Positions 12,254 to 30,152 of a DNA stretch of 64,000 bases are shown one piece after another. Origin of the DNA: Escherichia phage JM10; the sequence record PP400777, one strand, 5' to 3'. Made by a program: the position numbers and the translations under genes. Below the pieces are notes generated by a model. The model was not told where the DNA came from, ran no database searches, and saw only the letters and a program-made list of their open reading frames with translations. Each line of letters opens with the position of its first letter. The first letter of the stretch is position 1.

Positions 12254-12775
12254 TCAGTAACCATTATCCTGGCGTTCAAAGTTGTGTTGGTTTTTCAAGT
12301 AGTAAAGTTTAAAGATTTCTTCAGCGGAAAGACCCAGACCTTGGAACATATTCAGAACAAAGTGGAGGATATCAATCATTTCGAATTTAATTTCAAGCTG
12401 GTCTTCAGGAGACAGTTCATCGATACGACGATTTCGATATTCAGCATGTTGTGCTTTCCATGGCTTCCATACACTGCTGGCGGCTTTTTCACCATTGCTC
12501 ATACCACCAAGTGAAGTCAGCAGTTCACGGAATTCATCATCAATATAATCTTTCTGATTACGCAGCCAATCAACAACATCGCCAGCAGTGGCCAATTCAT
12601 CAGGATGTTTGTTATGTTCAGGCTTGTCATTTGCCAGACGAACCTGTAAAGATTTCTGCATATCAAGCATTACCTGCAGTGGGTCTTTATCTTCGTGAAT
12701 CAGAGCATTAAAATAAGCTTCTTCTGCTTTATCAACACCAGAAATAAGTTGGGAACATTCGTTAAAGTGTGCCAT
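12254..12775 (-). CDS. 56: dCTPase/dUTPase gp56 (MazG-like), start at MAHFNECS
   Basis: Synteny soc-56-61; size ~173 aa. Confidence 0.7.
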   Translation of the reverse strand: MAHFNECSQLISGVDKAEEAYFNALIHEDKDPLQVMLDMQKSLQVRLANDKPEHNKHPDELATAGDVVDWLRNQKDYIDDEFRELLTSLGGMSNGEKAASSVWKPWKAQHAEYRNRRIDELSPEDQLEIKFEMIDILHFVLNMFQGLGLSAEEIFKLYYLKNQHNFERQDNGY

Positions 12776-20850: not shown

Positions 20851-21399
20851 TTAACGAGCCCATTTGATGATTTCTGTAATCAAATCATTACGTTCGCTTG
20901 CATTAAATCCTATAACTTTGTTAGCACCATCATGATTAAGTAATTGATACGTTTGGATTTTGTTATGAATTGCAAACTCTTCAAAATGTGAAATGACTGT
21001 ATTAAAACCGAATGAAGACAAAGTAATAAGATCGTCTTCAAAACTTTCAGTCATTTCGTTACGTGTTAAAATAATTGTGAACACATCATGGTTTTGGCAA
21101 AGACGAACATAATCCTGTTCATAAACGTCAAGAACCGAGTCCGCATCTTGTCGAATACGTCCATAAACCCAGTTACTAATATATCCACGGTCTAATAGAT
21201 AAATCTTAGTAGGGTCTAAATAATTCAACATCGTTTCGAAACAGCCAACTTCATTTCGAGACTTAACATCGAAACGTCCATCAACTGTTCGTTTAGGGAA
21301 ATCAATCTTTACATATCTTTCACTAATTTCCATTATGTCATTAATGAAAGTTGTTTTACCAGCATTATCCGGGCCATCTACTAAAATAATTTTAGCCAT
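20851..21399 (-). CDS. thymidylate-kinase-like P-loop nucleotide kinase
   Basis: 182 aa; P-loop ILVDGPDNAGKTT; DRY-like motif LDRGYISNWVYG. Confidence 0.55.
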   Translation of the reverse strand: MAKIILVDGPDNAGKTTFINDIMEISERYVKIDFPKRTVDGRFDVKSRNEVGCFETMLNYLDPTKIYLLDRGYISNWVYGRIRQDADSVLDVYEQDYVRLCQNHDVFTIILTRNEMTESFEDDLITLSSFGFNTVISHFEEFAIHNKIQTYQLLNHDGANKVIGFNASERNDLITEIIKWAR

Positions 21400-21400
21400 T

Positions 21401-22300
21401 TTATTCCTCGATTACGACATCTTCGTATTTAGGTATATTATACGGTGAAGAAATTAAAGCGTTAAAGTAGATGAACTCACCAAGACCTGGATGGAATACT
21501 TCTTCAGGATTTTCGAAATATTGAATCTTCGGACGTCCTTTAAGAATTTGATAGTACTCAGTTTTAGTTGGTTTAAAAATTCGAATCAACGCTTCTTCAG
21601 GATACTTATTTCTGTCGAAGCTATTATTTGGATCGGTTATATAAAGCGGTTGGCCTAATTGAATTGCACATTCAACCACTTGTTCAAAACGATAGCACGG
21701 GTCACTAATTCGAAATGGATGAAAAATACCATCTAGATGAATAGGAGCCAAATCACCTACAAGACGCTGCATGATGGAAGGACGTATAACTTTCTGCGTT
21801 ACGATAATCTTATTACCATCTGCACCTGCGTTAACCAGCACTTCTTTTTGACGTTCATTCAACACAGTAGTTTGAAGTGAACGATTAACCGACAACATAT
21901 CAGTTTTTAAGAATTCGTCAATATAAAAACGTGGTTTATTAGGGTCTGCAGTGATATTGAAATTGAATTCCACATCAAAAGCGCCGTCATATCCGGTGAT
22001 ATCTGTGATTAGAAAATCACAATCATAATAAGCAATTAATGAATCAACCACAAATTCATTTTCAGACCAGAAATATTTACGAGTGTTATACGCGTTATCT
22101 TTATACCATAATGGAACAAACTTAAATTCTGGGAAAAGACGTTCGCATTCTTTAATATCGGATGCATTACGTGGATATGTAATCACATCGCCTGGATTAG
22201 CACGGTGCAAATGAAGTTGGAAGTTGCCATCCTTAAGGATAGCATACTGTCCAGTTTCATAAGACCGCATACTCAAAATAGGTACGCGGAAAATAGCCAT
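21401..22300 (-). CDS. hypothetical protein, 299 aa, at the T4 beta-gt position; candidate sugar transferase (inference)
   Basis: No motif recognised by eye; translationally coupled between gene 42 and the Tmk-like gene. Confidence 0.5.
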   Translation of the reverse strand: MAIFRVPILSMRSYETGQYAILKDGNFQLHLHRANPGDVITYPRNASDIKECERLFPEFKFVPLWYKDNAYNTRKYFWSENEFVVDSLIAYYDCDFLITDITGYDGAFDVEFNFNITADPNKPRFYIDEFLKTDMLSVNRSLQTTVLNERQKEVLVNAGADGNKIIVTQKVIRPSIMQRLVGDLAPIHLDGIFHPFRISDPCYRFEQVVECAIQLGQPLYITDPNNSFDRNKYPEEALIRIFKPTKTEYYQILKGRPKIQYFENPEEVFHPGLGEFIYFNALISSPYNIPKYEDVVIEE

Positions 22301-23016
22301 TAGTCAAGGAATCCTTTAACATAATCAAAATCACGTTCAAACACATGGGCACTTACCATGGTATGAGTATAATCACCAACTTCTACACCACATTCGTTAG
22401 CGATATAATGAAGTAATTTTCCTTGGAGATAAAAATCCAACTGCATAACAACAGCACAGTTCTGAGAACGCATATGACAGTGGGTATAAAGCTTACCATC
22501 ACGAATATAATAAGTCACTGAGTCAGTACATGGATATTCAAGCGTTTCGTCTGAATCAAGCAAAGCCTGATCAGAACTTTCTAGAATTTGGAACACAACT
22601 CTTCGAGAGTTAGGCTTCTCTTTAAGTTCTTTTAGAAGAGTTGGTAATTGGGCCGCAATGCGAGGACCATAGAAAGTGTTGAAGTTCGCCGGCAAAACAT
22701 CTGATTTTGGTTTAGAAATAAATTTAGCGACATTAGGATATGCCTTAAACGCTTCTTCTGCGTTGGTACCACCAGAAATCATAAACTTCCAGAAGTCTTC
22801 GGCATATTCATAAGAGATGCGGTTAATACGTGGGTCGGTCATTTTGAATGATGATGGAGTGTCAACAACTACTGTCATAGACCCAATTTCATTACAACGT
22901 CCAATACGAGAATCAGTTACGAATTCCGGGTTTTCTAAAATTTCACGATTGACTGCTTTAAATGCGGTTTGAAAATCTGCGGCTTTGATATATTTCATTG
23001 TGTTATGTTTTCCCAT
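22300..23016 (-). CDS. 42: dCMP hydroxymethylase (thymidylate-synthase fold)
   Basis: 238 aa; PCTDSVTYYIRDGKLYTHCHMRSQNCAVVMQLDF...CGVEVGDYTHTMVSAHVF parallels TS PCH..FQFYV.DGKL.CQLYQRS.D; synteny. Confidence 0.75.
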   Translation of the reverse strand: MGKHNTMKYIKAADFQTAFKAVNREILENPEFVTDSRIGRCNEIGSMTVVVDTPSSFKMTDPRINRISYEYAEDFWKFMISGGTNAEEAFKAYPNVAKFISKPKSDVLPANFNTFYGPRIAAQLPTLLKELKEKPNSRRVVFQILESSDQALLDSDETLEYPCTDSVTYYIRDGKLYTHCHMRSQNCAVVMQLDFYLQGKLLHYIANECGVEVGDYTHTMVSAHVFERDFDYVKGFLD

Positions 23017-23058: not shown

Positions 23059-23298
23059 TTATTTGAATTTCTTGACAATGTTGATATAACGTAAAGCTTC
23101 AGCATCGATACTTCCAAGAACACTATGAAGAAATGCATCAGCGTAGTATTCCAATTGAACAGGTTCTTTAATCACTTTAGCCGCTTTAGTTTCAAACAGG
23201 CCCATCAGGGCCTGTTTAAGAATTTGTTCATTAGTGTTCAGTTTCATAGTCAAAATCTCTTCATTAAGTTGGTGGTTAAAAGTTTTTCTAGAAATCAT
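23059..23298 (-). CDS. hypothetical protein, 79 aa
   Basis: ORF track. Confidence 0.45.
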   Translation of the reverse strand: MISRKTFNHQLNEEILTMKLNTNEQILKQALMGLFETKAAKVIKEPVQLEYYADAFLHSVLGSIDAEALRYINIVKKFK

Positions 23299-24455
23299 TC
23301 CGGGTACCTCAAAGCGTCATCAGAGTTAGTTATATCAATAATAGATATAGAGTTTTCTGCTAACCCGTTTTTAGATAATTGACGTTTATAATATCTTTCA
23401 CAATATGTACACGTCGTCCCGCAGATTTCATTAGCACAATCGAAATCTGGATGTCTGAACCACCTTTTTTCTAAAAAGCCATCTAACAAAGAGGTTTCAA
23501 TATTTACTGTATGTGAAAACTCAGTTTCGTTTTCAAGAGTGAAAATAGTCTCTAAAGGCTTCCACAGTTCTAACAAATTACCTTCAAACTTTTCAGAAGC
23601 GTATGCTTCAAGAACTTTCAAAATGTAGTCTGTACTACCTGTACGTCCTGAAACTTTGAATTGAGTGATACCAATATCATTATAAAGTTTCAAATCTTGA
23701 GGACGAACAAAACGAGTTCTCAACCAGTTAAATGGGTCTGTATCACGAGCTTTAATACAGTGCTGCATAGGATATCCGTTTAAGGATTTAGCATCATCAG
23801 CTGTAACATCAGTACTATGGAAAATATAGCAAGAGTCACGATAGCTACAATGTGTTGTATACCCTTTACCAGCATTAGAACAGAACTCATTTACAAGAAC
23901 TTCAAATATTATATTGTTCTTATTGCAAAACTCTGCTGCACGCTTCAGGAAAGAAACTGAACGGTTCTTATGAATTCCACAGCAGACCTTTTTGATATTA
24001 TATTGGTCATGCAAGTATTTGATTTGAGTTACAGCATCGACATGTAGAATTGTTGAAACTTCAATCTCAATGTCTTTATTGACTTCACGAACAATTTCCA
24101 TAACAACAGGGTTAGCGATAGTAATACGCCATACGCCTATTGACCAAAGATACTGAACATAATCCTGAATAGCTTTCTTCTTCCACTCAACTAGTTCTCT
24201 TTTTGAACCAGGATTTATCGTGTTGAGTGTATAGTTAAAGCAAATACCTAATTCGTTACAACGTTTAACGTAATCTTCTAACATCTTTTTGTCAACGTCA
24301 GGAAGCCTAAAATCAGGTCTGGCTGCTACAAAAGCCATTTCTCTTGTAGAGCCGTATACTTCGTTTATCAAGCTATTAGGATAAGTTTTATTGAGCTCTA
24401 CGATTTTATCAAGAAGAGCTAAATCAAAATTCGTTCCGATTTTAAAAGTATTCAT
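23295..24455 (-). CDS. hypothetical Cys-rich protein, 386 aa; candidate modification enzyme (inference)
   Basis: C-terminal cluster DFDCANEICGTTCTYCERYY (contains CxxxCxxC); inside the sugar operon. Confidence 0.5.
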   Translation of the reverse strand: MNTFKIGTNFDLALLDKIVELNKTYPNSLINEVYGSTREMAFVAARPDFRLPDVDKKMLEDYVKRCNELGICFNYTLNTINPGSKRELVEWKKKAIQDYVQYLWSIGVWRITIANPVVMEIVREVNKDIEIEVSTILHVDAVTQIKYLHDQYNIKKVCCGIHKNRSVSFLKRAAEFCNKNNIIFEVLVNEFCSNAGKGYTTHCSYRDSCYIFHSTDVTADDAKSLNGYPMQHCIKARDTDPFNWLRTRFVRPQDLKLYNDIGITQFKVSGRTGSTDYILKVLEAYASEKFEGNLLELWKPLETIFTLENETEFSHTVNIETSLLDGFLEKRWFRHPDFDCANEICGTTCTYCERYYKRQLSKNGLAENSISIIDITNSDDALRYPE

Positions 24456-24511: not shown

Positions 24512-24898
24512 TTATAGATTAGGTTTATATGATTTAAATGTTTCGAATTCGCCTTTATTCATAAGAGCTTTGAATTCGTCAGGACGCATAGCTTTGTCGT
24601 CGATAATCCAATCATATACTGGTTTATGTGTTAGCAAATTATGGTACTTCAAGCCAATGTTTGCCAAGTTCTGAATCAGACTTGGGAGAATGTCAATTGC
24701 TATACGTCCAGGACCTACTGACTTCATACCGCGAGCAGTGTAAAGCGTTATTGTATGCCCTGCATCATACAGAGCATTAATGGCAGACACCATTTCGACG
24801 TCTGGTTTGAAGTTCACGTAATCACGATTGTTATTCCACTCTGTTATACAATCATCGACATCAAAACAAAGATTAAGCATGTTTTCTACACGGTGCAT
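24512..24898 (-). CDS. HAD-superfamily phosphatase (sugar-phosphate phosphatase-like)
   Basis: Motif I LCFDVDDCIT near N-terminus; start probably at an internal Met overlapping the upstream stop. Confidence 0.6.
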   Translation of the reverse strand: MHRVENMLNLCFDVDDCITEWNNNRDYVNFKPDVEMVSAINALYDAGHTITLYTARGMKSVGPGRIAIDILPSLIQNLANIGLKYHNLLTHKPVYDWIIDDKAMRPDEFKALMNKGEFETFKSYKPNL

Positions 24899-26583
24899 TA
24901 GATTCGTTCCCATTGATGAGTGATATCGCCACCGATTGGACGATAGGAAACACCAGTTTCTTTATCAGTTAGTACCCATTTACCAGGATTTTTTGTAATC
25001 AGAGTAGCCGTTACAGGTTCTGCTACGTCATAACTAATAGAGCCGTCCTGAAGTACACGGCCCATGTTACGTAATTGCTTAGTCAGAAGTTCCATACCTT
25101 TATAATATGCGGCTACCGCTTTAAGTGGATTATTCTTGAAATAACCACCTAATGCAATCCAGATAATTGCCACTGCCAAATGATGATACTCGTTAAACGA
25201 ACTCATCTTTCCATATTTGTAAACTAATGGATTGATGTTAATAGTCACATTACAAGTTGTTTCATCAATAGTAAACTGTCCCCAGGTCGGATTAGCATTG
25301 AATTCATCATAACCTGAAACAGCATAAAGCACTTTAGCTTCATCATACAATTTTGGCCCGTAAATCTTGGTTTCGCCAAAATATCCACGAGGGTCGATAA
25401 ACTTGACTTCGCCGTTATCAGTAATCATAGTATTACTGAAGTTCGGGTCACCGTGAATAACAGAGTACTGCCCCTGAGAACGGTTATGATAACGAATAAG
25501 GTGTTCTAAAGCTTGTTTCAGCATTGGCTTCAGACGTCCAATCTTAGTGTAGTTCACATGTGTGATTTTACCAAATGAATCAATCAATGGTTGAATGCTT
25601 TCACAACGATCAATAACTTTCGTATAGAATTCTTTAGTGAAATCACGACGAACAGTTTCAGGACTTACAAAATAAGTGTCTGTGCTGAATTTCAGTGCAT
25701 CTAAAATTGCATCAACAATTTGTGGACGAGCAAGACTTGATTTGGATTTAATATATTCAAATGCCGGCTTACCTTTAATGCGTTCCATTTCAAAGTTATT
25801 TTCATTAACAGAAACTAACTGAGGAACTGAATCTGATTTCACTTTAAGATACCATGAAATCTCATCTTTCTGAAGAGCTCGACCTTGTTCAGTTAATGCG
25901 AATTTAGTTACAGTTTCTTCACCAATTTCAACTGCATTAAAACTACGATTAAGTTCACGAACTTCATGAGCTTTTTCAAGTTTAGGCATATCACCTAAAT
26001 CAATTATATTCATAAGCTCTGATTTATTGAATGCGCCGCTGTAAAGGAATTCTACAAAATCACGTCCTTTGCAGTATTCATGAATTTCCTCATCGGTAGA
26101 ACCCATATAGAATTCCCAGTCTTTGAACTGATAAATTCCTACAACATTACCACCTGTTGAACCTACGTTAGTGATATTTTCACCGTCGAAATTATAGCGA
26201 CATTCGTCACCCTTAACATAGATTGCGTTGACATTCCAAGACCATGAACCAAAATCAGGAATAATATCGCACCAGTTAACAATTACGTTATGGCCATCTA
26301 AATCTTTGTGTAATTTAGCAAGAGCATAAGCAGATCCGTATGCTTCATCAACTGTACGAATAGTCACATTGAACCCTTCTTGCTCACAATAAGCTCGAAC
26401 AGTTTCAGCAAATTTTGAATGAACTACTACAATAATTTCATCTGCGCCAAGGTCAGAATAAATTGTATACAAATTGCTCAGAATAGTGTCTTGTTTATAG
26501 TTAACAAGCACCTTAGGAATATGATGCGTTATTGGATACAAACGAGTTGCCAGTCCAGCACCAAGAATAACAGCTTTTTTCAT
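24898..26583 (-). CDS. bifunctional sugar-1-phosphate nucleotidyltransferase (N-terminal) / protein-kinase-like sugar kinase (C-terminal)
   Basis: 561 aa; N-terminus MKKAVILGAGLATRLYPIT (RmlA-like G-x-G-T-R-L); C-terminal HGDPNFSN (HGDxxxxN) and FIDPRG (APH/choline-kinase family). Confidence 0.7.
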   Translation of the reverse strand: MKKAVILGAGLATRLYPITHHIPKVLVNYKQDTILSNLYTIYSDLGADEIIVVVHSKFAETVRAYCEQEGFNVTIRTVDEAYGSAYALAKLHKDLDGHNVIVNWCDIIPDFGSWSWNVNAIYVKGDECRYNFDGENITNVGSTGGNVVGIYQFKDWEFYMGSTDEEIHEYCKGRDFVEFLYSGAFNKSELMNIIDLGDMPKLEKAHEVRELNRSFNAVEIGEETVTKFALTEQGRALQKDEISWYLKVKSDSVPQLVSVNENNFEMERIKGKPAFEYIKSKSSLARPQIVDAILDALKFSTDTYFVSPETVRRDFTKEFYTKVIDRCESIQPLIDSFGKITHVNYTKIGRLKPMLKQALEHLIRYHNRSQGQYSVIHGDPNFSNTMITDNGEVKFIDPRGYFGETKIYGPKLYDEAKVLYAVSGYDEFNANPTWGQFTIDETTCNVTININPLVYKYGKMSSFNEYHHLAVAIIWIALGGYFKNNPLKAVAAYYKGMELLTKQLRNMGRVLQDGSISYDVAEPVTATLITKNPGKWVLTDKETGVSYRPIGGDITHQWERI

Positions 26584-26624: not shown

Positions 26625-26768
26625 CTAGTTAAAGCATTCATACTTCGCTTGTAGTCCAATCATAATCCATCCGATTATAAGAGTCGGAACCATTACTGGA
26701 GCCGTTAAGCTCCAGTAGATAGTCATGACAAGCATCAATAGTAAAAGTCCTATTGTTATTGCTTTCAT
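26625..26768 (-). CDS. small membrane protein, 47 aa
   Basis: Hand translation MKAITIGLLLLMLVMTIYWSLTAPVMVPTLIIGWIMIGLQAKYECFN; ATGA start/stop overlap with the SIS gene; SD GAGG. Confidence 0.45.
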   Translation of the reverse strand: MKAITIGLLLLMLVMTIYWSLTAPVMVPTLIIGWIMIGLQAKYECFN

Positions 26769-27400
26769 TGCTCGCCTCGTAACATGGCACCTAGTGCACC
26801 GCCTGGATGGAACTTAAGGAAGTCATTAGAGGTAAATCCACGTTCAGACGAAAGGTTGATAGCAAACGTATCGATAAGCGCTAACAACAATGTAGTGGAC
26901 ATAGTCGGAGCCAGAGAATTCTCATCAACCTCTACTGCGATGCCTGTACAGAACGTATAATCAAAAAGAGCTTCGTATTCTTGTGGAATGTCAGGGTTAC
27001 AATGTAACAGAATCTGTTTAACCTGAGGACGAATCATACGAAGATGTTTAGCAACACCTATCATTTCTTCAGTCTTACCAGAACGACTGATGTGAACTAA
27101 TACATCATTAGGTGCAATAAATCCTGCGTCACCATGAGAATAATGCCCGGTGTTCAAATACATGCTAGGAATACCGAGTGAAGCAAAAGTCTCGGAAGCT
27201 TTAGTTGCGATATTAGCATTCTTACCAACACCTGTAATAATTACTCGGCTTTCATAATTACTAAGTCCCGGGCGTCGAAGAGTTTCTAGAATAGCATTAT
27301 AACGAGCAGGGTTTTGACTAATTACTTTGGCCATAGCGGCCAAAGAAGAAGCTTGTTTTATGATTGCGTCAATAGCGATAGTAATAGGAGTAGTTTTCAT
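26765..27400 (-). CDS. SIS-domain sugar-phosphate isomerase (arabinose-5-phosphate isomerase KdsD/GutQ-like, no CBS domains)
   Basis: 211 aa; VIITGVGKNANIA, SRSGKTEE, HPGGALG. Confidence 0.7.
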   Translation of the reverse strand: MKTTPITIAIDAIIKQASSLAAMAKVISQNPARYNAILETLRRPGLSNYESRVIITGVGKNANIATKASETFASLGIPSMYLNTGHYSHGDAGFIAPNDVLVHISRSGKTEEMIGVAKHLRMIRPQVKQILLHCNPDIPQEYEALFDYTFCTGIAVEVDENSLAPTMSTTLLLALIDTFAINLSSERGFTSNDFLKFHPGGALGAMLRGEQ

Positions 27401-27440: not shown

Positions 27441-30152
27441 TCAAAAATCGAACATATCGAACAGAGATGCTTTCTTCTCGTAATCGAGTTTCGCTGCTGA
27501 TGTGAATCCTTCAAGTGGTTTAATAAATGTCTTCTCAAGGAGAACAGTGTAGTCCATCCAATGAAGTACGTCGTCTTTAATTAAATCTGTGATTTCAGTG
27601 CCAGAAGGCCATGCGATACATTTATCACCGAATGGGTTTCCTTCACGTAAAGGCAGAACATATACTTTTTCACCTTCTACAACTTGCGGTGCATCGATAT
27701 TACCTTTGATAGCCCGGTTATACGTCAGAATTCCACGAATATGGAACGGGCATTTGGGACCAGGGAATCCACCGACATCATATTTAGCAATGTTATTCGC
27801 AGAAGATACCGACGCGATGCTAATATAATTCAATTGACGGAATTCTTTTTCAAACTCTTTAAAATATTCTTGTAATGATTCTTCACCTTCTTGAAGCATA
27901 CGACGAATACATTCTTTAAGAGCTTTCTGTACTGCTTTAGGGGTCGAAGATTTCTGAGTCTCTAGACCCATGATTTTGAGTTTAGGCTCAGCGTAACGAG
28001 TGCCTTCCATATCCCACACGTTTAATGCATAACGTTTCTTACCAGTCCAGAATCCACCAATACCTTTAGAACCGAGCGGAGGACCAGCGATAGCTTCTCG
28101 GTCCATGAACATTAAGTGTTGTTTATTGTTCATGTATTCACACATTTCACGGAAACCTCTATCAATAGCAGGTTCCATACGTTCACGAGCGAACTTATCT
28201 AAGAAGTCTACCCAATGGTTGGTATCACGGAATTTAGATTCACCAACCTTATCGATAATTTTATCAGCAGATACGTAAATAGAGTCTGTATCACCATAAA
28301 GAACGAAAGCTTCACCTTCTGTACCACAAACTTCATTCAGATATTCATTAACTTTACGTTCAATCCACTGTAAAGCCATTTGCCCGAATGTTGTGATTGC
28401 AGTAGCATTACGCAAATCATAATAACGGAACCAAACGTTTCCAAGTGCACCATAAAGCGAGTTGATGAGCAATTTACGGTTAATCTGTGCAGTCATACCT
28501 GCAACTTCAGTACGTTGAGCTCTAAACAACATTTCATTAAGAGATTTAGCAGACAACTTTTTAATCTTTTCTTTAATCTCAACGCTGAAGTCGAAACGAT
28601 AATCAACATCTAACGGTTCGTCAACAGAAAGATTAGGATTATGCAATGCCTCTTTAATTATTTCACCATTACGTTGAGCTGCAAGCATGTAACCTTTATG
28701 TTCTTTACGTTGATTAAAGACCTTAGTGATTTCAGTTGGAACTACACCATCACGGTCTTTATAATACATCATGCCGTTAGGAGAACAACTGTACACATCT
28801 GAAGGACGTTCAGCGATTGCGTTAATATAATCATGCAGTGGAGCTACTTTAAACGTTCCTGCTATTGTTTCCGGGCTAATATTCACTTGGCGAATAATAC
28901 TTGGATACAGAGATGTAAGGTCGAAACTCATTACATATTTGTATCGATTTGGAATAGGTTCCTTAACAAAAGCGCCAGGATAAGGTTGAACTGGGTGAGA
29001 ACGACCTTGTGGAATCACCTTGTTCTGTTCTTTAAGGCTATTAAAAATAATAGCATCCCATGTTTTAATTGGGCTAAACACAGATTGAATCTGTATCTTA
29101 GCATAATAACCCATGTCCAAACTCAAGTTGATGAACTGACGCTTAGCATCAATTTGCAATACACGATACACGTCGATAATGTTATAAGAAATATATCGTT
29201 GGTGATTGCTTTCACGAAGCTTAGAAATAGGGCCGTCATATTTCAGTTTACCAACGTTCAATTCAAATTCTGAAATGTAATCCAGAGAATACGACGGTTG
29301 ATTGGTAAAAGAGAATTTTTTGTAAAGGTCAATGTAATCAAGAACAGAGATACCGAACAATGTAATGATTTCACGAGAACCATACATGTTTTCGATAACT
29401 TTAACACGAGTTTTACGATGTGGTGATAAACGTTTCGCAGTAGATTCGCCAAAAATATTCTTGATTCGGTTATACACATATGGAATATCAAATGACTCAA
29501 CGTTCCATCCAGTCAAAATGACAGGAGTTTTCTGTTGCCAGAAGTTGAGATATTCCATCAACAATTCTTTTTCGTTATCGAACGGCATATAAATGATTTT
29601 ATCAATAATTTCGGATGGAACTTCATCACCGCCTTGTTCTTGAAGCTTAGCCGCAATTTCGATAGACCATTCTTCTACATTACCATACGGAGAATTCAAT
29701 AGATCAAATACGTAGAACCTGTCGTCAATTGAGTCATAATGGGTGATAGCATCAATCGGATGTTTTGCTTGTGACGGCTCAGGGAACCCATCCGGAGATG
29801 TTACTTCGATGTCGAAGTTAGCCACACGAATTTTTGTATGGTCGTATTTGATTTCATAGTTATAAGTGTCAGACAAATACGCCAATTTGAAATCGTCCAT
29901 GCCAAGTGCTTCAAGTCCGATATCTTCCATGCGTTTAATCCATTGGGAGGCATCACGCATATTAGCGAACAACTTACGAGTACACGGCTTACCGTAGATA
30001 TCGAAATATTTCGTAGCCTGACTTTCTGGACAATGAGCAAACAGTGATGGTTTATATTCTACTTCACGAGTACGTTCACGGCCATTAGAATCGATGTAAC
30101 GTTCAAAAATTGAATCACCAATCTGTTCAACCGTTAAGTAAAATTCTTTCAT
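27441..30152 (-). CDS. 43: DNA polymerase gp43 (family B)
   Basis: 903 aa; exonuclease and polymerase motifs (YGDTDS); synteny. Confidence 0.95.
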   Translation of the reverse strand: MKEFYLTVEQIGDSIFERYIDSNGRERTREVEYKPSLFAHCPESQATKYFDIYGKPCTRKLFANMRDASQWIKRMEDIGLEALGMDDFKLAYLSDTYNYEIKYDHTKIRVANFDIEVTSPDGFPEPSQAKHPIDAITHYDSIDDRFYVFDLLNSPYGNVEEWSIEIAAKLQEQGGDEVPSEIIDKIIYMPFDNEKELLMEYLNFWQQKTPVILTGWNVESFDIPYVYNRIKNIFGESTAKRLSPHRKTRVKVIENMYGSREIITLFGISVLDYIDLYKKFSFTNQPSYSLDYISEFELNVGKLKYDGPISKLRESNHQRYISYNIIDVYRVLQIDAKRQFINLSLDMGYYAKIQIQSVFSPIKTWDAIIFNSLKEQNKVIPQGRSHPVQPYPGAFVKEPIPNRYKYVMSFDLTSLYPSIIRQVNISPETIAGTFKVAPLHDYINAIAERPSDVYSCSPNGMMYYKDRDGVVPTEITKVFNQRKEHKGYMLAAQRNGEIIKEALHNPNLSVDEPLDVDYRFDFSVEIKEKIKKLSAKSLNEMLFRAQRTEVAGMTAQINRKLLINSLYGALGNVWFRYYDLRNATAITTFGQMALQWIERKVNEYLNEVCGTEGEAFVLYGDTDSIYVSADKIIDKVGESKFRDTNHWVDFLDKFARERMEPAIDRGFREMCEYMNNKQHLMFMDREAIAGPPLGSKGIGGFWTGKKRYALNVWDMEGTRYAEPKLKIMGLETQKSSTPKAVQKALKECIRRMLQEGEESLQEYFKEFEKEFRQLNYISIASVSSANNIAKYDVGGFPGPKCPFHIRGILTYNRAIKGNIDAPQVVEGEKVYVLPLREGNPFGDKCIAWPSGTEITDLIKDDVLHWMDYTVLLEKTFIKPLEGFTSAAKLDYEKKASLFDMFDF

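What the first reader, a model, noticed from the sequence alone, without database searches (positions are those of the whole stretch)
24898..26583. Single-polypeptide anomeric sugar kinase plus NDP-sugar pyrophosphorylase
Seen: one 561-aa ORF has an N-terminal Rossmann nucleotidyltransferase signature essentially identical in pattern to glucose-1-phosphate thymidylyltransferase (GAGLATRLYPIT) and a C-terminal protein-kinase-like domain with the Brenner motif HGDxxxxN and a downstream D-x-x-G. Established: this domain pair occurs as separate or fused salvage enzymes (LicC/LicA type, AmgK/MurU type) that convert a free sugar or alcohol to its NDP-derivative. Inference: a salvage-style route to an NDP-sugar inside a phage genome, independent of host UDP-glucose.
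Basis: partly seen in the sequence, partly recalled or inferred. Interest (0 to 1): 0.8.

Follow-up and report, generated by a model that had tools for sequence, protein, structure and literature searches.

The report
Phage UDP-arabinose kinase/pyrophosphorylase fusion (AfhE)

Summary
Window 24898-26583 (minus strand) is one 561-aa ORF. Its N-terminal half is a complete sugar-1-phosphate nucleotidyltransferase (G8AGLATRLYPIT19, K24). Its C-terminal half has the APH/choline-kinase fold (H377GDPNFSN384, D397PRG400). All these residues are invariant in homologues down to 29% identity.

The window is a Mosigvirus (RB69-like phage). The ORF is the intact form of RB69 ORF053c+ORF052c, shown in 2018 to be one 561-residue gene and proposed then to make UDP-arabinose. 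A 2026 paper equates it with AfhE of coliphage HY126, reported as a bifunctional D-arabinose-5-phosphate kinase / UDP-D-arabinose pyrophosphorylase. Two neighbouring proteins are 100% and 97.5% identical to solved PDB chains (9iqw, 9iqc).

The published route is not free-sugar salvage. Ribulose-5-P is converted by the phage isomerase to arabinose-5-P. This kinase makes arabinose-1,5-bisphosphate, the adjacent HAD phosphatase makes arabinose-1-P, and this enzyme's N-terminal domain makes UDP-arabinofuranose. That sugar is transferred to 5-hydroxycytosine in DNA.

Novelty: already known. Interest is low.

One side lead may be new. The cluster's U32 protein, paired with a chorismate mutase in 48 related phages and found only in phages of facultative anaerobes, may be an oxygen-independent route to 5-hydroxycytosine.

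The parts
24898..26583 (-). 561-aa bifunctional ORF (AfhE-type; equals RB69 ORF53_52c / gp52:53), stop codon included
   Evidence: ORF listing. It is 97.9% nt identical to RB69 28094-29780, with one 1-nt indel at codon 218 that splits the RB69 record into p053 and p052; aa identity is 98.2% and 99.7%. It is 100% identical to the protein of phage vB_EcoM_G2285.
25963..26583 (-). N-terminal domain, residues 1 to about 207: sugar-1-phosphate nucleotidyltransferase (UDP-arabinose pyrophosphorylase)
   Evidence: Pfam NTP_transferase above cut-off. The family profile hits heptose-1-P guanylyltransferase 6jq8 at E 1e-13 and LicC 1jyk at 3e-11. Foldseek gives RffH/RmlA, MurU and LicC, with TM-score to target 0.64-0.70 for MurU/LicC. 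G10, R14, K24, D106 and D195/D198 are invariant.
26527..26562 (-). Codons for G8AGLATRLYPIT19, the NTP-binding loop signature
25036..25962 (-). Kinase domain, residues about 208-516: APH/choline-kinase fold (arabinose-5-P 1-kinase)
   Evidence: K227 and E241 (N-lobe) are invariant, along with the motifs listed below.
25432..25455 (-). Codons for H377GDPNFSN384 (Brenner motif, catalytic loop)
   Evidence: aligned with HNDfsanN of APH(2'').
25384..25395 (-). Codons for D397PRG400, preceded by I396 (metal-binding loop, DFG equivalent)
   Evidence: The ID aligns with the ID of APH(2'').
24901..25035 (-). C-terminal extension of about 45 residues (517-561), function unknown
   Evidence: In alignment A1 it is present only in homologues with at least about 36% identity (Straboviridae and relatives) and absent from the shorter, more distant ones. 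Confidence is lower here: pLDDT 58-84.
26765..27400 (-). Arabinose-5-phosphate isomerase (SIS domain; RB69 gp55 equivalent), makes the kinase substrate
   Evidence: Pfam SIS. NCBIfam KpsF/GutQ E 9e-32 and KdsD E 4e-30, both below the equivalog cut-offs. PHROG arabinose-5-P isomerase. Collinear with RB69p055.
24512..24913 (-). HAD-type phosphatase (AfhF-type; RB69 gp51 equivalent). Its start overlaps the end of the 561-aa ORF (16-nt overlap, or TAATG if the second ATG is used)
   Evidence: NCBIfam capsule-biosynthesis phosphatase E 4e-13. Residues 5-133 are 100% identical to PDB 9iqw; 1xpj scores E 5e-10. The overlap is shown.
22300..23016 (-). Thymidylate-synthase homologue: 5-hydroxy-dCMP synthase (RB69 gp48 equivalent)
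   Evidence: Pfam Thymidylat_synt. 232 of 238 residues identical to PDB 9iqc/9ir2. Function from PMC13326640.
21401..22300 (-). Putative DNA arabinosyltransferase 1 (RB69 gp46:47 equivalent), the user of the UDP-arabinose
   Evidence: Collinearity with RB69. 100% identical to G2285_00042. Assignment from PMC13326640 Table 1. No Pfam or PDB sequence hit here.
23295..24455 (-). Peptidase_U32-family protein (RB69 gp50 equivalent); role in the pathway unassigned
   Evidence: Pfam Peptidase_U32 E 7e-11. Ten invariant cysteines. Host distribution.
23059..23298 (-). 79-aa ORF overlapping the U32 stop codon (RB69 gp49 equivalent); unknown function
   Evidence: Homologues are found only in Mosigvirus-like sequences. 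Related genera have a chorismate mutase in this slot, with no detectable similarity to this ORF.
20851..21399 (-). Thymidylate-kinase-like nucleotide kinase (RB69 gp45 equivalent)
   Evidence: Labelled 'nucleotide kinase' in PMC13326640 Table 1.
12257..12775 (-). dCTP pyrophosphatase (RB69 gp28 equivalent); removes canonical dCTP
   Evidence: 100% identical to the G2285 dCTPase. Pfam dUTPase_2.

Best explanation
The ORF encodes the Mosigvirus orthologue of AfhE, a bifunctional enzyme that makes UDP-D-arabinofuranose, the donor for arabinosylation of 5-hydroxycytosine in phage DNA. The proposed steps are as follows. (1) The phage SIS-domain isomerase converts host ribulose-5-phosphate to D-arabinose-5-phosphate. 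(2) The C-terminal APH/choline-kinase-fold domain of this protein uses ATP to phosphorylate the anomeric C1-OH, giving arabinofuranose-1,5-bisphosphate. Catalytic residues are inferred to be D379 and N384 in the Brenner loop, D397 as metal ligand, and the K227/E241 pair. (3) The HAD phosphatase, encoded by the next gene and translationally coupled to this one, removes the 5-phosphate to give arabinofuranose-1-phosphate. (4) The N-terminal nucleotidyltransferase domain (G8-x-G-x-x-T-R14, K24, D106, D195/D198) condenses it with UTP to give UDP-arabinofuranose and PPi. (5) Phage glycosyltransferases transfer arabinose to 5-hydroxycytosine, which enters DNA via the thymidylate-synthase-like 5-hydroxy-dCMP synthase. 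Shown here: the ORF, both folds, the conserved motifs, orthology to RB69 ORF53_52c, and the gene context. Taken from the literature: the sugar, the nucleotide and the order of steps, all measured on the HY126 enzymes. Inferred: that the window enzyme behaves identically, and which residue does what.
For: ORF and motifs. Invariance of the motifs across 37 homologues. N-terminal fold. Kinase fold. Orthology to RB69 ORF053c+052c at 98-99.7% aa identity, with the frameshift at exactly the base reported as a sequencing error. The locus is collinear with RB69 gp45-gp56. [quoted passage not shown] The window's HAD protein is 100% identical to PDB 9iqw and its ThyA-like protein 97.5% identical to PDB 9iqc/9ir2/9iqu, so solved structures exist for near-identical Mosigvirus proteins. 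Distant homologues fuse HAD, SIS, nucleotidyltransferase and kinase in one chain, which links the four activities functionally. Mosigvirus DNA has been shown chemically to carry mono- and di-arabinosyl-5-hydroxycytosine.
Against: I could not read the primary biochemical paper (He et al., Nat Chem Biol 2026); the step order rests on its summary in PMC13326640. Table 1 of that same paper still labels the RB69 proteins with the alternative order ('dephosphorylates Araf5p to Ara', 'phosphorylates Ara to Araf1p'). The window protein on its own does not reach Pfam's cut-off for any kinase family. No structure of this protein is in the PDB. Nothing computed here distinguishes arabinose-5-P from free arabinose as the kinase substrate, or UTP from other NTPs.
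Confidence: 0.82

Rival explanations
1. True salvage order, essentially the first reader's view. The HAD phosphatase first dephosphorylates arabinose-5-P to free D-arabinose (or free arabinose comes from the medium). The kinase domain then phosphorylates C1 of the free sugar, and the N-terminal domain makes the NDP-sugar, as in AmgK/MurU or LicA/LicC.
Against: The text of the same paper, citing in-vitro work on HY126 AfhE/AfhF, states that the kinase acts on Araf5P to give Araf1,5P and that the phosphatase acts on the bisphosphate. A phage-encoded arabinose-5-P isomerase would be wasteful if the phosphate were removed and ATP then spent again. The HAD protein's reported structural neighbour is a heptose-1,7-bisphosphate phosphatase.
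Confidence: 0.12
2. Same architecture but different chemistry in this phage: another pentose or hexose, or a nucleotide other than UDP (for example GDP or CDP, as GenBank labels such as 'mannose-1-P guanyltransferase' or 'GlmU' suggest).
For: The best sequence-level matches of the N-terminal domain are to guanylyl- and cytidylyltransferases: 6jq8 heptose-1-P guanylyltransferase and LicC. GenBank records give a range of names.
Against: Mosigvirus DNA contains arabinose. The neighbouring isomerase is specific to arabinose-5-P by family. HY126 AfhE is reported to make UDP-D-arabinose. The GenBank names come from weak similarity confined to the first ~100 residues.
Confidence: 0.04
3. The C-terminal half is not a sugar kinase but a protein or antibiotic kinase, or an inactive scaffold.
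For: Single-sequence Pfam hits are sub-threshold and spread over RIO1, EcKL, Fructosamin_kin and a viral VP7 family. For the DLP3 orthologue, Foldseek's best PDB hit was a protein kinase.
Confidence: 0.02

Closest known systems
AfhE of Escherichia phage HY126 (He et al., Nat Chem Biol 2026, as summarised in PMC13326640); RB69 ORF53_52c / gp52:53; DLP3 gp82
   Same: Same two-domain architecture and the same neighbours (isomerase, HAD phosphatase, ThyA-like hydroxylase, glycosyltransferase). 98-99.7% identical to the RB69 protein and 57% identical to the DLP3 protein.
   Different: No meaningful difference was found. The window ORF is intact, whereas the RB69 GenBank record carries a 1-nt sequencing error. 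Identity to the HY126 protein itself could not be measured.
ADP-heptose pathway: GmhA (SIS isomerase), HldE (bifunctional kinase/adenylyltransferase), GmhB (HAD phosphatase). This is the author's own knowledge of that pathway.
   Same: Identical pathway logic: ketose phosphate, then aldose phosphate by a SIS isomerase, then anomeric phosphorylation to a bisphosphate, then removal of the distal phosphate by a HAD enzyme, then nucleotidyl transfer. In both cases the kinase and the nucleotidyltransferase are fused in one protein.
   Different: The two catalytic domains are not homologous to HldE's. HldE has a PfkB/ribokinase-type kinase and a cytidylyltransferase-type transferase, in the order kinase then transferase. 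Here the order is an RmlA/MurU-type transferase followed by an APH/ChoK-type kinase. The substrate is a pentose and the nucleotide is UDP.
AmgK/MurU (MurNAc salvage) and LicA/LicC (choline activation)
   Same: The same pair of folds: an APH/ChoK-type kinase and a minimal RmlA-like nucleotidyltransferase. MurU and LicC are among the best structural matches of the N-terminal domain, and LicA is among those of the C-terminal domain.
   Different: Those are separate proteins acting on a free sugar or alcohol with no phosphatase step (own knowledge). Here the domains are fused, the reported substrate is already phosphorylated at C5, and a phosphatase acts between the two steps. Sequence identity is only 11-20%.
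APH-fold anomeric sugar kinases: 5-methylthioribose kinase MtnK, maltokinase, N-acetylhexosamine 1-kinase NahK
FKP-type L-fucokinase/GDP-fucose pyrophosphorylases of Bacteroides, plants and trypanosomatids (own knowledge)
   Same: A single polypeptide with an N-terminal pyrophosphorylase and a C-terminal anomeric sugar kinase that produces an NDP-sugar.
   Different: FKP kinases belong to the GHMP family, not the APH/ChoK fold, and act on free sugars. No GHMP signal was found here.

Membership tests
Sugar-1-phosphate nucleotidyltransferase (Pfam NTP_transferase PF00483; RmlA/MurU/LicC fold) | Score above Pfam's curated cut-off | tested here: met
   39.1 bits against 21.2, residues 3-99.
Sugar-1-phosphate nucleotidyltransferase (Pfam NTP_transferase PF00483; RmlA/MurU/LicC fold) | N-terminal G-x-G-x-(x)-T/S-R-L...K nucleotide-binding signature | tested here: met
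   G8AGLATRL15 and K24. G10, R14 and K24 are invariant in 37 homologues.
Sugar-1-phosphate nucleotidyltransferase (Pfam NTP_transferase PF00483; RmlA/MurU/LicC fold) | Complete fold including the sugar-binding half, not only the first ~100 residues | tested here: met
   The model (pLDDT 92.5) aligns over 225-250 columns with RffH, RmlA, MurU and LicC. TM-score normalised to the target is 0.64-0.70 for MurU/LicC.
Sugar-1-phosphate nucleotidyltransferase (Pfam NTP_transferase PF00483; RmlA/MurU/LicC fold) | Catalyses NTP + sugar-1-P to NDP-sugar + PPi | not testable with these tools
   Reported for HY126 AfhE only, via PMC13326640.
APH / choline-kinase (eukaryotic-like kinase) fold, Pfam APH PF01636 and relatives | Window protein itself scores above a curated Pfam cut-off for a kinase family | tested here: not met
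   Only sub-threshold hits: Fructosamin_kin 17.1 against 22.4, EcKL 16.2 against 22, RIO1 16.1 against 22.
APH / choline-kinase (eukaryotic-like kinase) fold, Pfam APH PF01636 and relatives | Family-level sequence relationship to APH enzymes | tested here: met
   16 of 37 homologues hit PF01636, best E 6e-10. The C-terminal-domain profile hits APH(2'') 3uzr/3ham at E 9e-7 and 2e-6 over 184 positions.
APH / choline-kinase (eukaryotic-like kinase) fold, Pfam APH PF01636 and relatives | Two-lobe kinase fold closest to APH/ChoK rather than to protein kinases | tested here: met
APH / choline-kinase (eukaryotic-like kinase) fold, Pfam APH PF01636 and relatives | Brenner motif HxDxxxxN, a downstream metal-binding Asp, and an N-lobe Lys/Glu pair | tested here: met
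   H377GDPNFSN384, I396-D397, K227 and E241, all invariant. They align with the corresponding APH(2'') residues.
AfhE (bifunctional D-arabinose-5-P kinase / UDP-D-arabinose pyrophosphorylase of arabinosyl-5hoC phages) | Orthology to a protein named as the AfhE counterpart (RB69 gp52:53) | tested here: met
   97.9% nt identity; 98.2% and 99.7% aa identity to the two RB69 fragments. Equivalence stated in PMC13326640.
AfhE (bifunctional D-arabinose-5-P kinase / UDP-D-arabinose pyrophosphorylase of arabinosyl-5hoC phages) | Genomic context with the arabinose-5-P isomerase, AfhF-type HAD phosphatase, ThyA-like 5hodCMP synthase and glycosyltransferase | tested here: met
   All are present, co-directional and tightly packed between uvsX and gene 43. 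The HAD protein is 100% identical and the ThyA-like protein 97.5% identical to PDB chains 9iqw and 9iqc.
AfhE (bifunctional D-arabinose-5-P kinase / UDP-D-arabinose pyrophosphorylase of arabinosyl-5hoC phages) | Direct sequence identity to HY126 AfhE | not testable with these tools
   The primary paper is not held. The phage is in the taxonomy only as an unclassified Caudoviricetes, and no sequence was obtained.
AfhE (bifunctional D-arabinose-5-P kinase / UDP-D-arabinose pyrophosphorylase of arabinosyl-5hoC phages) | Kinase substrate is arabinose-5-P and the product is the 1,5-bisphosphate | not testable with these tools
   From the literature only. Table 1 of the same paper still shows the other order.
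Free-substrate salvage pairs (AmgK/MurU, LicA/LicC) | Kinase acts on an unphosphorylated sugar or alcohol taken up or recycled by the cell | not testable with these tools
   The reported biochemistry and the adjacent isomerase and phosphatase argue against it.
HldE (ADP-heptose bifunctional kinase/adenylyltransferase) | PfkB-type kinase domain plus a cytidylyltransferase-type domain | tested here: not met
   No PfkB or CTP_transf_like signal. The domains found are NTP_transferase and APH-like. The resemblance lies in pathway logic only.

The most novel reading that the evidence does not exclude
The 561-aa enzyme itself is known. The most novel reading my evidence leaves open concerns the module it serves. 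The U32-family protein two genes downstream (23295-24455) may be a prephenate-dependent, O2-independent cytosine C5-hydroxylase. It would let these phages make 5-hydroxycytosine, and so use the UDP-arabinose made by this enzyme, when the host grows anaerobically and the O2/flavin-dependent ThyA-like synthase cannot work. In 48 related phages a bona fide chorismate mutase, the enzyme that makes prephenate, follows the U32 gene directly. A second open reading concerns the HAD-SIS-nucleotidyltransferase-kinase fusions found in a giant-virus-like context and in a eukaryotic transcriptome; these may be single-chain NDP-arabinose synthases.
Probability: 0.35. Interest if true: 0.7.

Novelty: already known. 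Interest (0 to 1): 0.15.

Why it matters
The enzyme gives the phage its own supply of UDP-arabinofuranose, a sugar nucleotide that enterobacteria are not known to make. All cytosines in the phage DNA can then be replaced by arabinosylated 5-hydroxycytosine, which blocks many restriction enzymes and alters sensitivity to other defence systems. That biology is significant, but it has been published (2018 proposal; 2025-2026 chemistry and enzymology). This finding therefore adds only a correctly annotated copy in one more Mosigvirus genome. It does have practical value for annotation. Most of the 373 phage records carrying this gene call it 'hypothetical protein', 'GlmU' or 'mannose-1-phosphate guanyltransferase', and the adjacent phosphatase is often called 'phosphoheptose isomerase' or 'polynucleotide kinase'.

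Tried and rejected
1. Single-sequence searches of the whole protein against the PDB found only the first ~100 residues. The C-terminal half needed a family profile and a domain-only model.
2. A Foldseek search with the full-length model returned only N-terminal-domain matches, so a second, domain-only prediction was made.
3. The primary papers (He et al. 2026; Mahler et al. 2025) are not held. A search for 'AfhE/HY126' found only the NAR 2026 paper.
4. Sigma-70 promoter and terminator scans of the module gave no more sites than shuffled sequence and were not used.
5. The second arabinosyltransferase (RB69 gp3 homologue) was looked for and is not in the window.
6. I tested whether the window's 79-aa ORF is a diverged chorismate mutase. 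There was no Pfam hit, no PDB hit, no similarity to the KLB31 chorismate mutase, and homologues only within Mosigvirus.
7. I considered HldE membership and rejected it, because the domain families differ.
8. I considered a GHMP-type FKP relationship and rejected it, because there is no GHMP signal.
Full report
**1. What is at the coordinates**

Window 24898-26583 holds one ORF on the minus strand: ATG start, 561 codons, with GAGGA 8 nt upstream of the start.
- GAGLATRLYPIT at residues 8-19
- HGDPNFSN at residues 377-384
- DPRG at residues 397-400

From this protein's composition, HGDxxxxN is expected 0.003 times and GxGxxTRL 0.0005 times by chance. In an alignment of 37 homologues reaching down to 29% identity, these residues are invariant: G10, R14, K24, D106, D195, G197, D198, K227, E241, H377, G378, D379, N384, D397, P398, R399, G400.

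**2. The two domains**

N-terminal domain:
- Pfam NTP_transferase scores 39.1 bits against a cut-off of 21.2, but covers only residues 3-99.
- A family profile hits a heptose-1-phosphate guanylyltransferase (6jq8, E 1e-13) and LicC (1jyk, E 3e-11).
- An AlphaFold model built on the alignment is confident (pLDDT 92.5, pTM 0.89).
- Foldseek aligns 225-250 columns of that model with RffH/RmlA, MurU, LicC and GDP-mannose pyrophosphorylases.
- The N-terminal ~207 residues are therefore a complete sugar-1-phosphate nucleotidyltransferase.

C-terminal domain:
- The window protein alone gives only sub-threshold kinase-like Pfam hits and no PDB sequence hit.
- At family level, 16 of 37 homologues hit Pfam APH on their own (best E 6e-10).
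- A profile of the C-terminal half hits APH(2'') structures 3uzr and 3ham at E 9e-7 and 2e-6 over 184 positions. These include the N-lobe lysine, the HxD...N loop and the ID of the metal-binding loop.
- For a domain-only model (pLDDT 89.9), all 50 top Foldseek hits are aminoglycoside, macrolide or capreomycin phosphotransferases or choline/ethanolamine kinases, including LicA.

**3. Which phage, and which gene**

The 6-kb region is 98% identical to about 150 Escherichia and Shigella phages of the genus Mosigvirus. The protein is 100% identical to that of phage vB_EcoM_G2285.

The RB69 reference record is collinear with the window. There the gene is annotated as two ORFs, RB69p053 and RB69p052. 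Aligning the DNA gives 97.9% identity, with a single extra C in RB69 at codon 218. The two RB69 fragments are 98.2% and 99.7% identical to residues 1-218 and 219-561.

Thomas et al. 2018 (PMC6024577) resequenced this region. They found that C-29116 is a sequencing error, expressed the single 561-residue product, and proposed that it and the neighbouring isomerase make UDP-arabinose.

**4. What it does, according to the literature**

Lee et al. 2026 (PMC13326640) report the following:
- RB69 and Acinetobacter phage DLP3 replace cytosine with mono-, di- or tri-arabinosylated 5-hydroxycytosine (5hoC, not hydroxymethylcytosine).
- The base is made as 5-hydroxy-dCMP by a thymidylate-synthase homologue.
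- Citing He et al. [quoted passage not shown]
- AfhF is a Mg-dependent phosphatase acting on arabinofuranose-1,5-bisphosphate.
- RB69 gp52:53 and gp51 are the counterparts of AfhE and AfhF.
- Their own structure comparisons of RB69 gp52:53 gave MurU and LicC for the N-terminal domain. For the C-terminal domain they gave APH 3ham, choline kinase and glucosamine kinase. My searches reproduced this independently.

I could not obtain the primary He et al. or Mahler et al. papers.

**5. A direct link to the characterised proteins**

The window's HAD protein is 100% identical over residues 5-133 to PDB chain 9iqw. The ThyA-like protein matches PDB 9iqc/9ir2 at 232 of 238 residues. These consecutive entries fit the crystal structures attributed to He et al., but the table gives no organism, so that attribution is my inference. 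Whatever their origin, near-identical Mosigvirus proteins of this module have been solved. The 561-aa protein and the glycosyltransferase have no PDB entry.

**6. Context**

All on the minus strand, between uvsX and gene 43:

| Window coordinates | Gene |
|---|---|
| 20851-21399 | thymidylate-kinase-like protein |
| 21401-22300 | putative arabinosyltransferase 1 |
| 22300-23016 | 5-hydroxy-dCMP synthase |
| 23059-23298 | 79-aa ORF |
| 23295-24455 | U32-family protein |
| 24512-24913 | HAD phosphatase |
| 24898-26583 | the 561-aa ORF |
| 26765-27400 | arabinose-5-phosphate isomerase |

These assignments rest.

The end of the 561-aa ORF overlaps the start of the HAD gene, by 16 nt or as TAATG, which suggests translational coupling. 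The dCTPase lies at 12257-12775. The second arabinosyltransferase (RB69 gp3 homologue) is not in the window.

**7. Mechanism and rivals**

Best explanation (confidence 0.82):
1. The phage isomerase converts ribulose-5-P to arabinose-5-P.
2. The C-terminal kinase domain converts it to arabinose-1,5-bisphosphate.
3. The HAD phosphatase converts that to arabinose-1-P.
4. The N-terminal domain, with UTP, converts it to UDP-arabinofuranose.
5. Glycosyltransferases transfer the arabinose to 5hoC in DNA.

The folds, motifs, orthology and context are shown here. The sugar, nucleotide and step order come from the literature. The residue roles are inferred.

Main rival (0.12): free-sugar salvage, with the phosphatase acting first. 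The folds fit this, and Table 1 of Lee et al. still carries those labels. The cited in-vitro work contradicts it, and so does the cost of removing a phosphate only to spend ATP again.

Minor rivals:
- A different sugar or nucleotide (0.04).
- The kinase-like domain is not a sugar kinase (0.02).

**8. Comparison with known systems**

By identity it is AfhE / RB69 ORF53_52c. By pathway logic the nearest classical system is ADP-heptose synthesis: GmhA (SIS isomerase), HldE (fused kinase and nucleotidyltransferase) and GmhB (HAD phosphatase acting on a bisphosphate). HldE's two domains belong to different families, so this is analogy, not membership. Those are separate proteins that act on unphosphorylated substrates with no phosphatase step.

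**9. Verdict**

The finding is real, and the domains were read correctly from raw sequence. The 'salvage' inference is only partly right, and the whole thing is already published. Interest is low.

**10. Seen in passing**

(a) Four-domain fusions.
- Distant homologues of 890-955 aa carry HAD, SIS, nucleotidyltransferase and kinase domains in one chain.
- One lies beside a MutS-HNH gene and RNA polymerase Rpb2, a giant-virus-like context, inside a eukaryote assembly.
- Another comes from a eukaryotic transcriptome.

(b) The U32 protein.
- It is found in 221 phage records. The host genera listed are enterics plus Shewanella.
- Acinetobacter is not among the ten genera listed, although 57 Acinetobacter phages carry the AfhE-type gene. 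The DLP3 cluster has no U32 gene.
- It is 82% or more identical across genera, whereas the AfhE-type protein is only 54-73% identical in the same phages.
- It has ten invariant cysteines.
- In Klebsiella phage KLB31 the ORF overlapping its stop codon is a genuine type II chorismate mutase (Pfam CM_2, 38.5 bits against a 27-bit cut-off).
- That chorismate mutase occurs in 48 phage records. In every fully listed hit it lies next to the ThyA-like gene, and in the best-annotated records also next to U32.
- U32 proteins RlhA and TrhP mediate prephenate-dependent, O2-independent C5-hydroxylation of cytidine and uridine in RNA (PMC6599085). UbiU/V use prephenate, the product of chorismate mutase, as the oxygen donor under anaerobiosis (PMC10990095).
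- The phage's ThyA-like synthase takes its oxygen from O2.
- I therefore suggest the U32 protein is an anaerobic route to 5hoC. Lee et al. label it only 'sugar or heterocycle reductase'.
- No paper in the searchable library makes this link, but I could not read He et al. or Mahler et al.

(c) The window's own 79-aa ORF sits in the chorismate-mutase slot but shows no detectable similarity to that enzyme.

Noticed in passing
window 23295-24455 (-), with 23059-23298 (-); L006 3983-5394: The Peptidase_U32-family gene in the arabinosylation module occurs in 221 phage records. The host genera listed are enterics plus Shewanella, all facultative anaerobes. Acinetobacter is not among them, although 57 Acinetobacter phages carry the AfhE-type gene. 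The protein is 82% or more identical across genera and has 10 invariant cysteines. In 48 related phages a genuine type II chorismate mutase lies beside the ThyA-like hydroxylase gene, directly after U32 where the annotation shows it. Known U32 proteins (RlhA, TrhP, UbiU/V) carry out prephenate-dependent, O2-independent hydroxylations, including C5 of cytidine. This suggests an anaerobic route to 5-hydroxycytosine. No held paper makes this link.
   Followed up: partly
window 23059-23298 (-): This 79-aa ORF overlaps the U32 stop codon. It has the same size and position as the chorismate mutase of Kanagawavirus and other genera, but no detectable sequence similarity to it. Homologues are found only in Mosigvirus. 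It could be a diverged chorismate mutase or an unrelated replacement.
   Followed up: partly
P0084, P0088, P0089, P0091, P0093; L003 6001-8781: Distant homologues of 890-955 aa fuse HAD phosphatase, SIS isomerase, nucleotidyltransferase and the kinase-like domain in one chain, i.e. the whole four-activity pathway. P0084 lies on a 103-kb contig beside MutS-HNH, RNA polymerase Rpb2 and a protein kinase. That is a giant-virus-like context inside a eukaryote genome assembly. P0091 comes from a eukaryotic transcriptome.
   Followed up: partly
window 24901-25035 (-), residues 517-561 of the ORF: A C-terminal extension of about 45 residues lies beyond the kinase fold. In alignment A1 it is present only in the closer homologues (Straboviridae and relatives) and is absent from more distant ~520-aa homologues. 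It is modelled with lower confidence (pLDDT 58-84). Its function is unknown; it could be a docking element for the phosphatase.
   Followed up: no
window 24512-24913 (-) and 22300-23016 (-): The HAD phosphatase is 100% identical (residues 5-133) to PDB 9iqw, deposited as 'Capsule biosynthesis protein'. The ThyA-like protein matches PDB 9iqc/9ir2/9iqu, deposited as 'Thymidylate synthase', at 232 of 238 residues. The deposited names do not reflect the reported functions.
   Followed up: yes
L007 5447-7086 (466-kb metagenomic contig): A 55%-identical homologue of the phage U32 protein directly follows a dCMP deaminase gene, among UDG, DNA polymerase III alpha and SSB genes, on a 466-kb contig. 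This again places a U32 protein in a nucleotide-metabolism and replication context.
   Followed up: no
L002 29902-33703 compared with window 27441-30152: In phage vB_EcoM_G2285 the DNA polymerase gene next to the module is interrupted: a group I intron with an internal ORF is annotated. In the window it is one intact 903-aa ORF, so the window is a different Mosigvirus isolate even though the 561-aa protein is identical.
   Followed up: no
public records matched: Annotations of this module are inconsistent. The 561-aa gene is called hypothetical protein, GlmU, nucleotidyltransferase or mannose-1-phosphate guanyltransferase. The HAD phosphatase is called phosphoheptose isomerase or polynucleotide kinase. 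The U32 protein is called peptidase or collagenase.
   Followed up: yes
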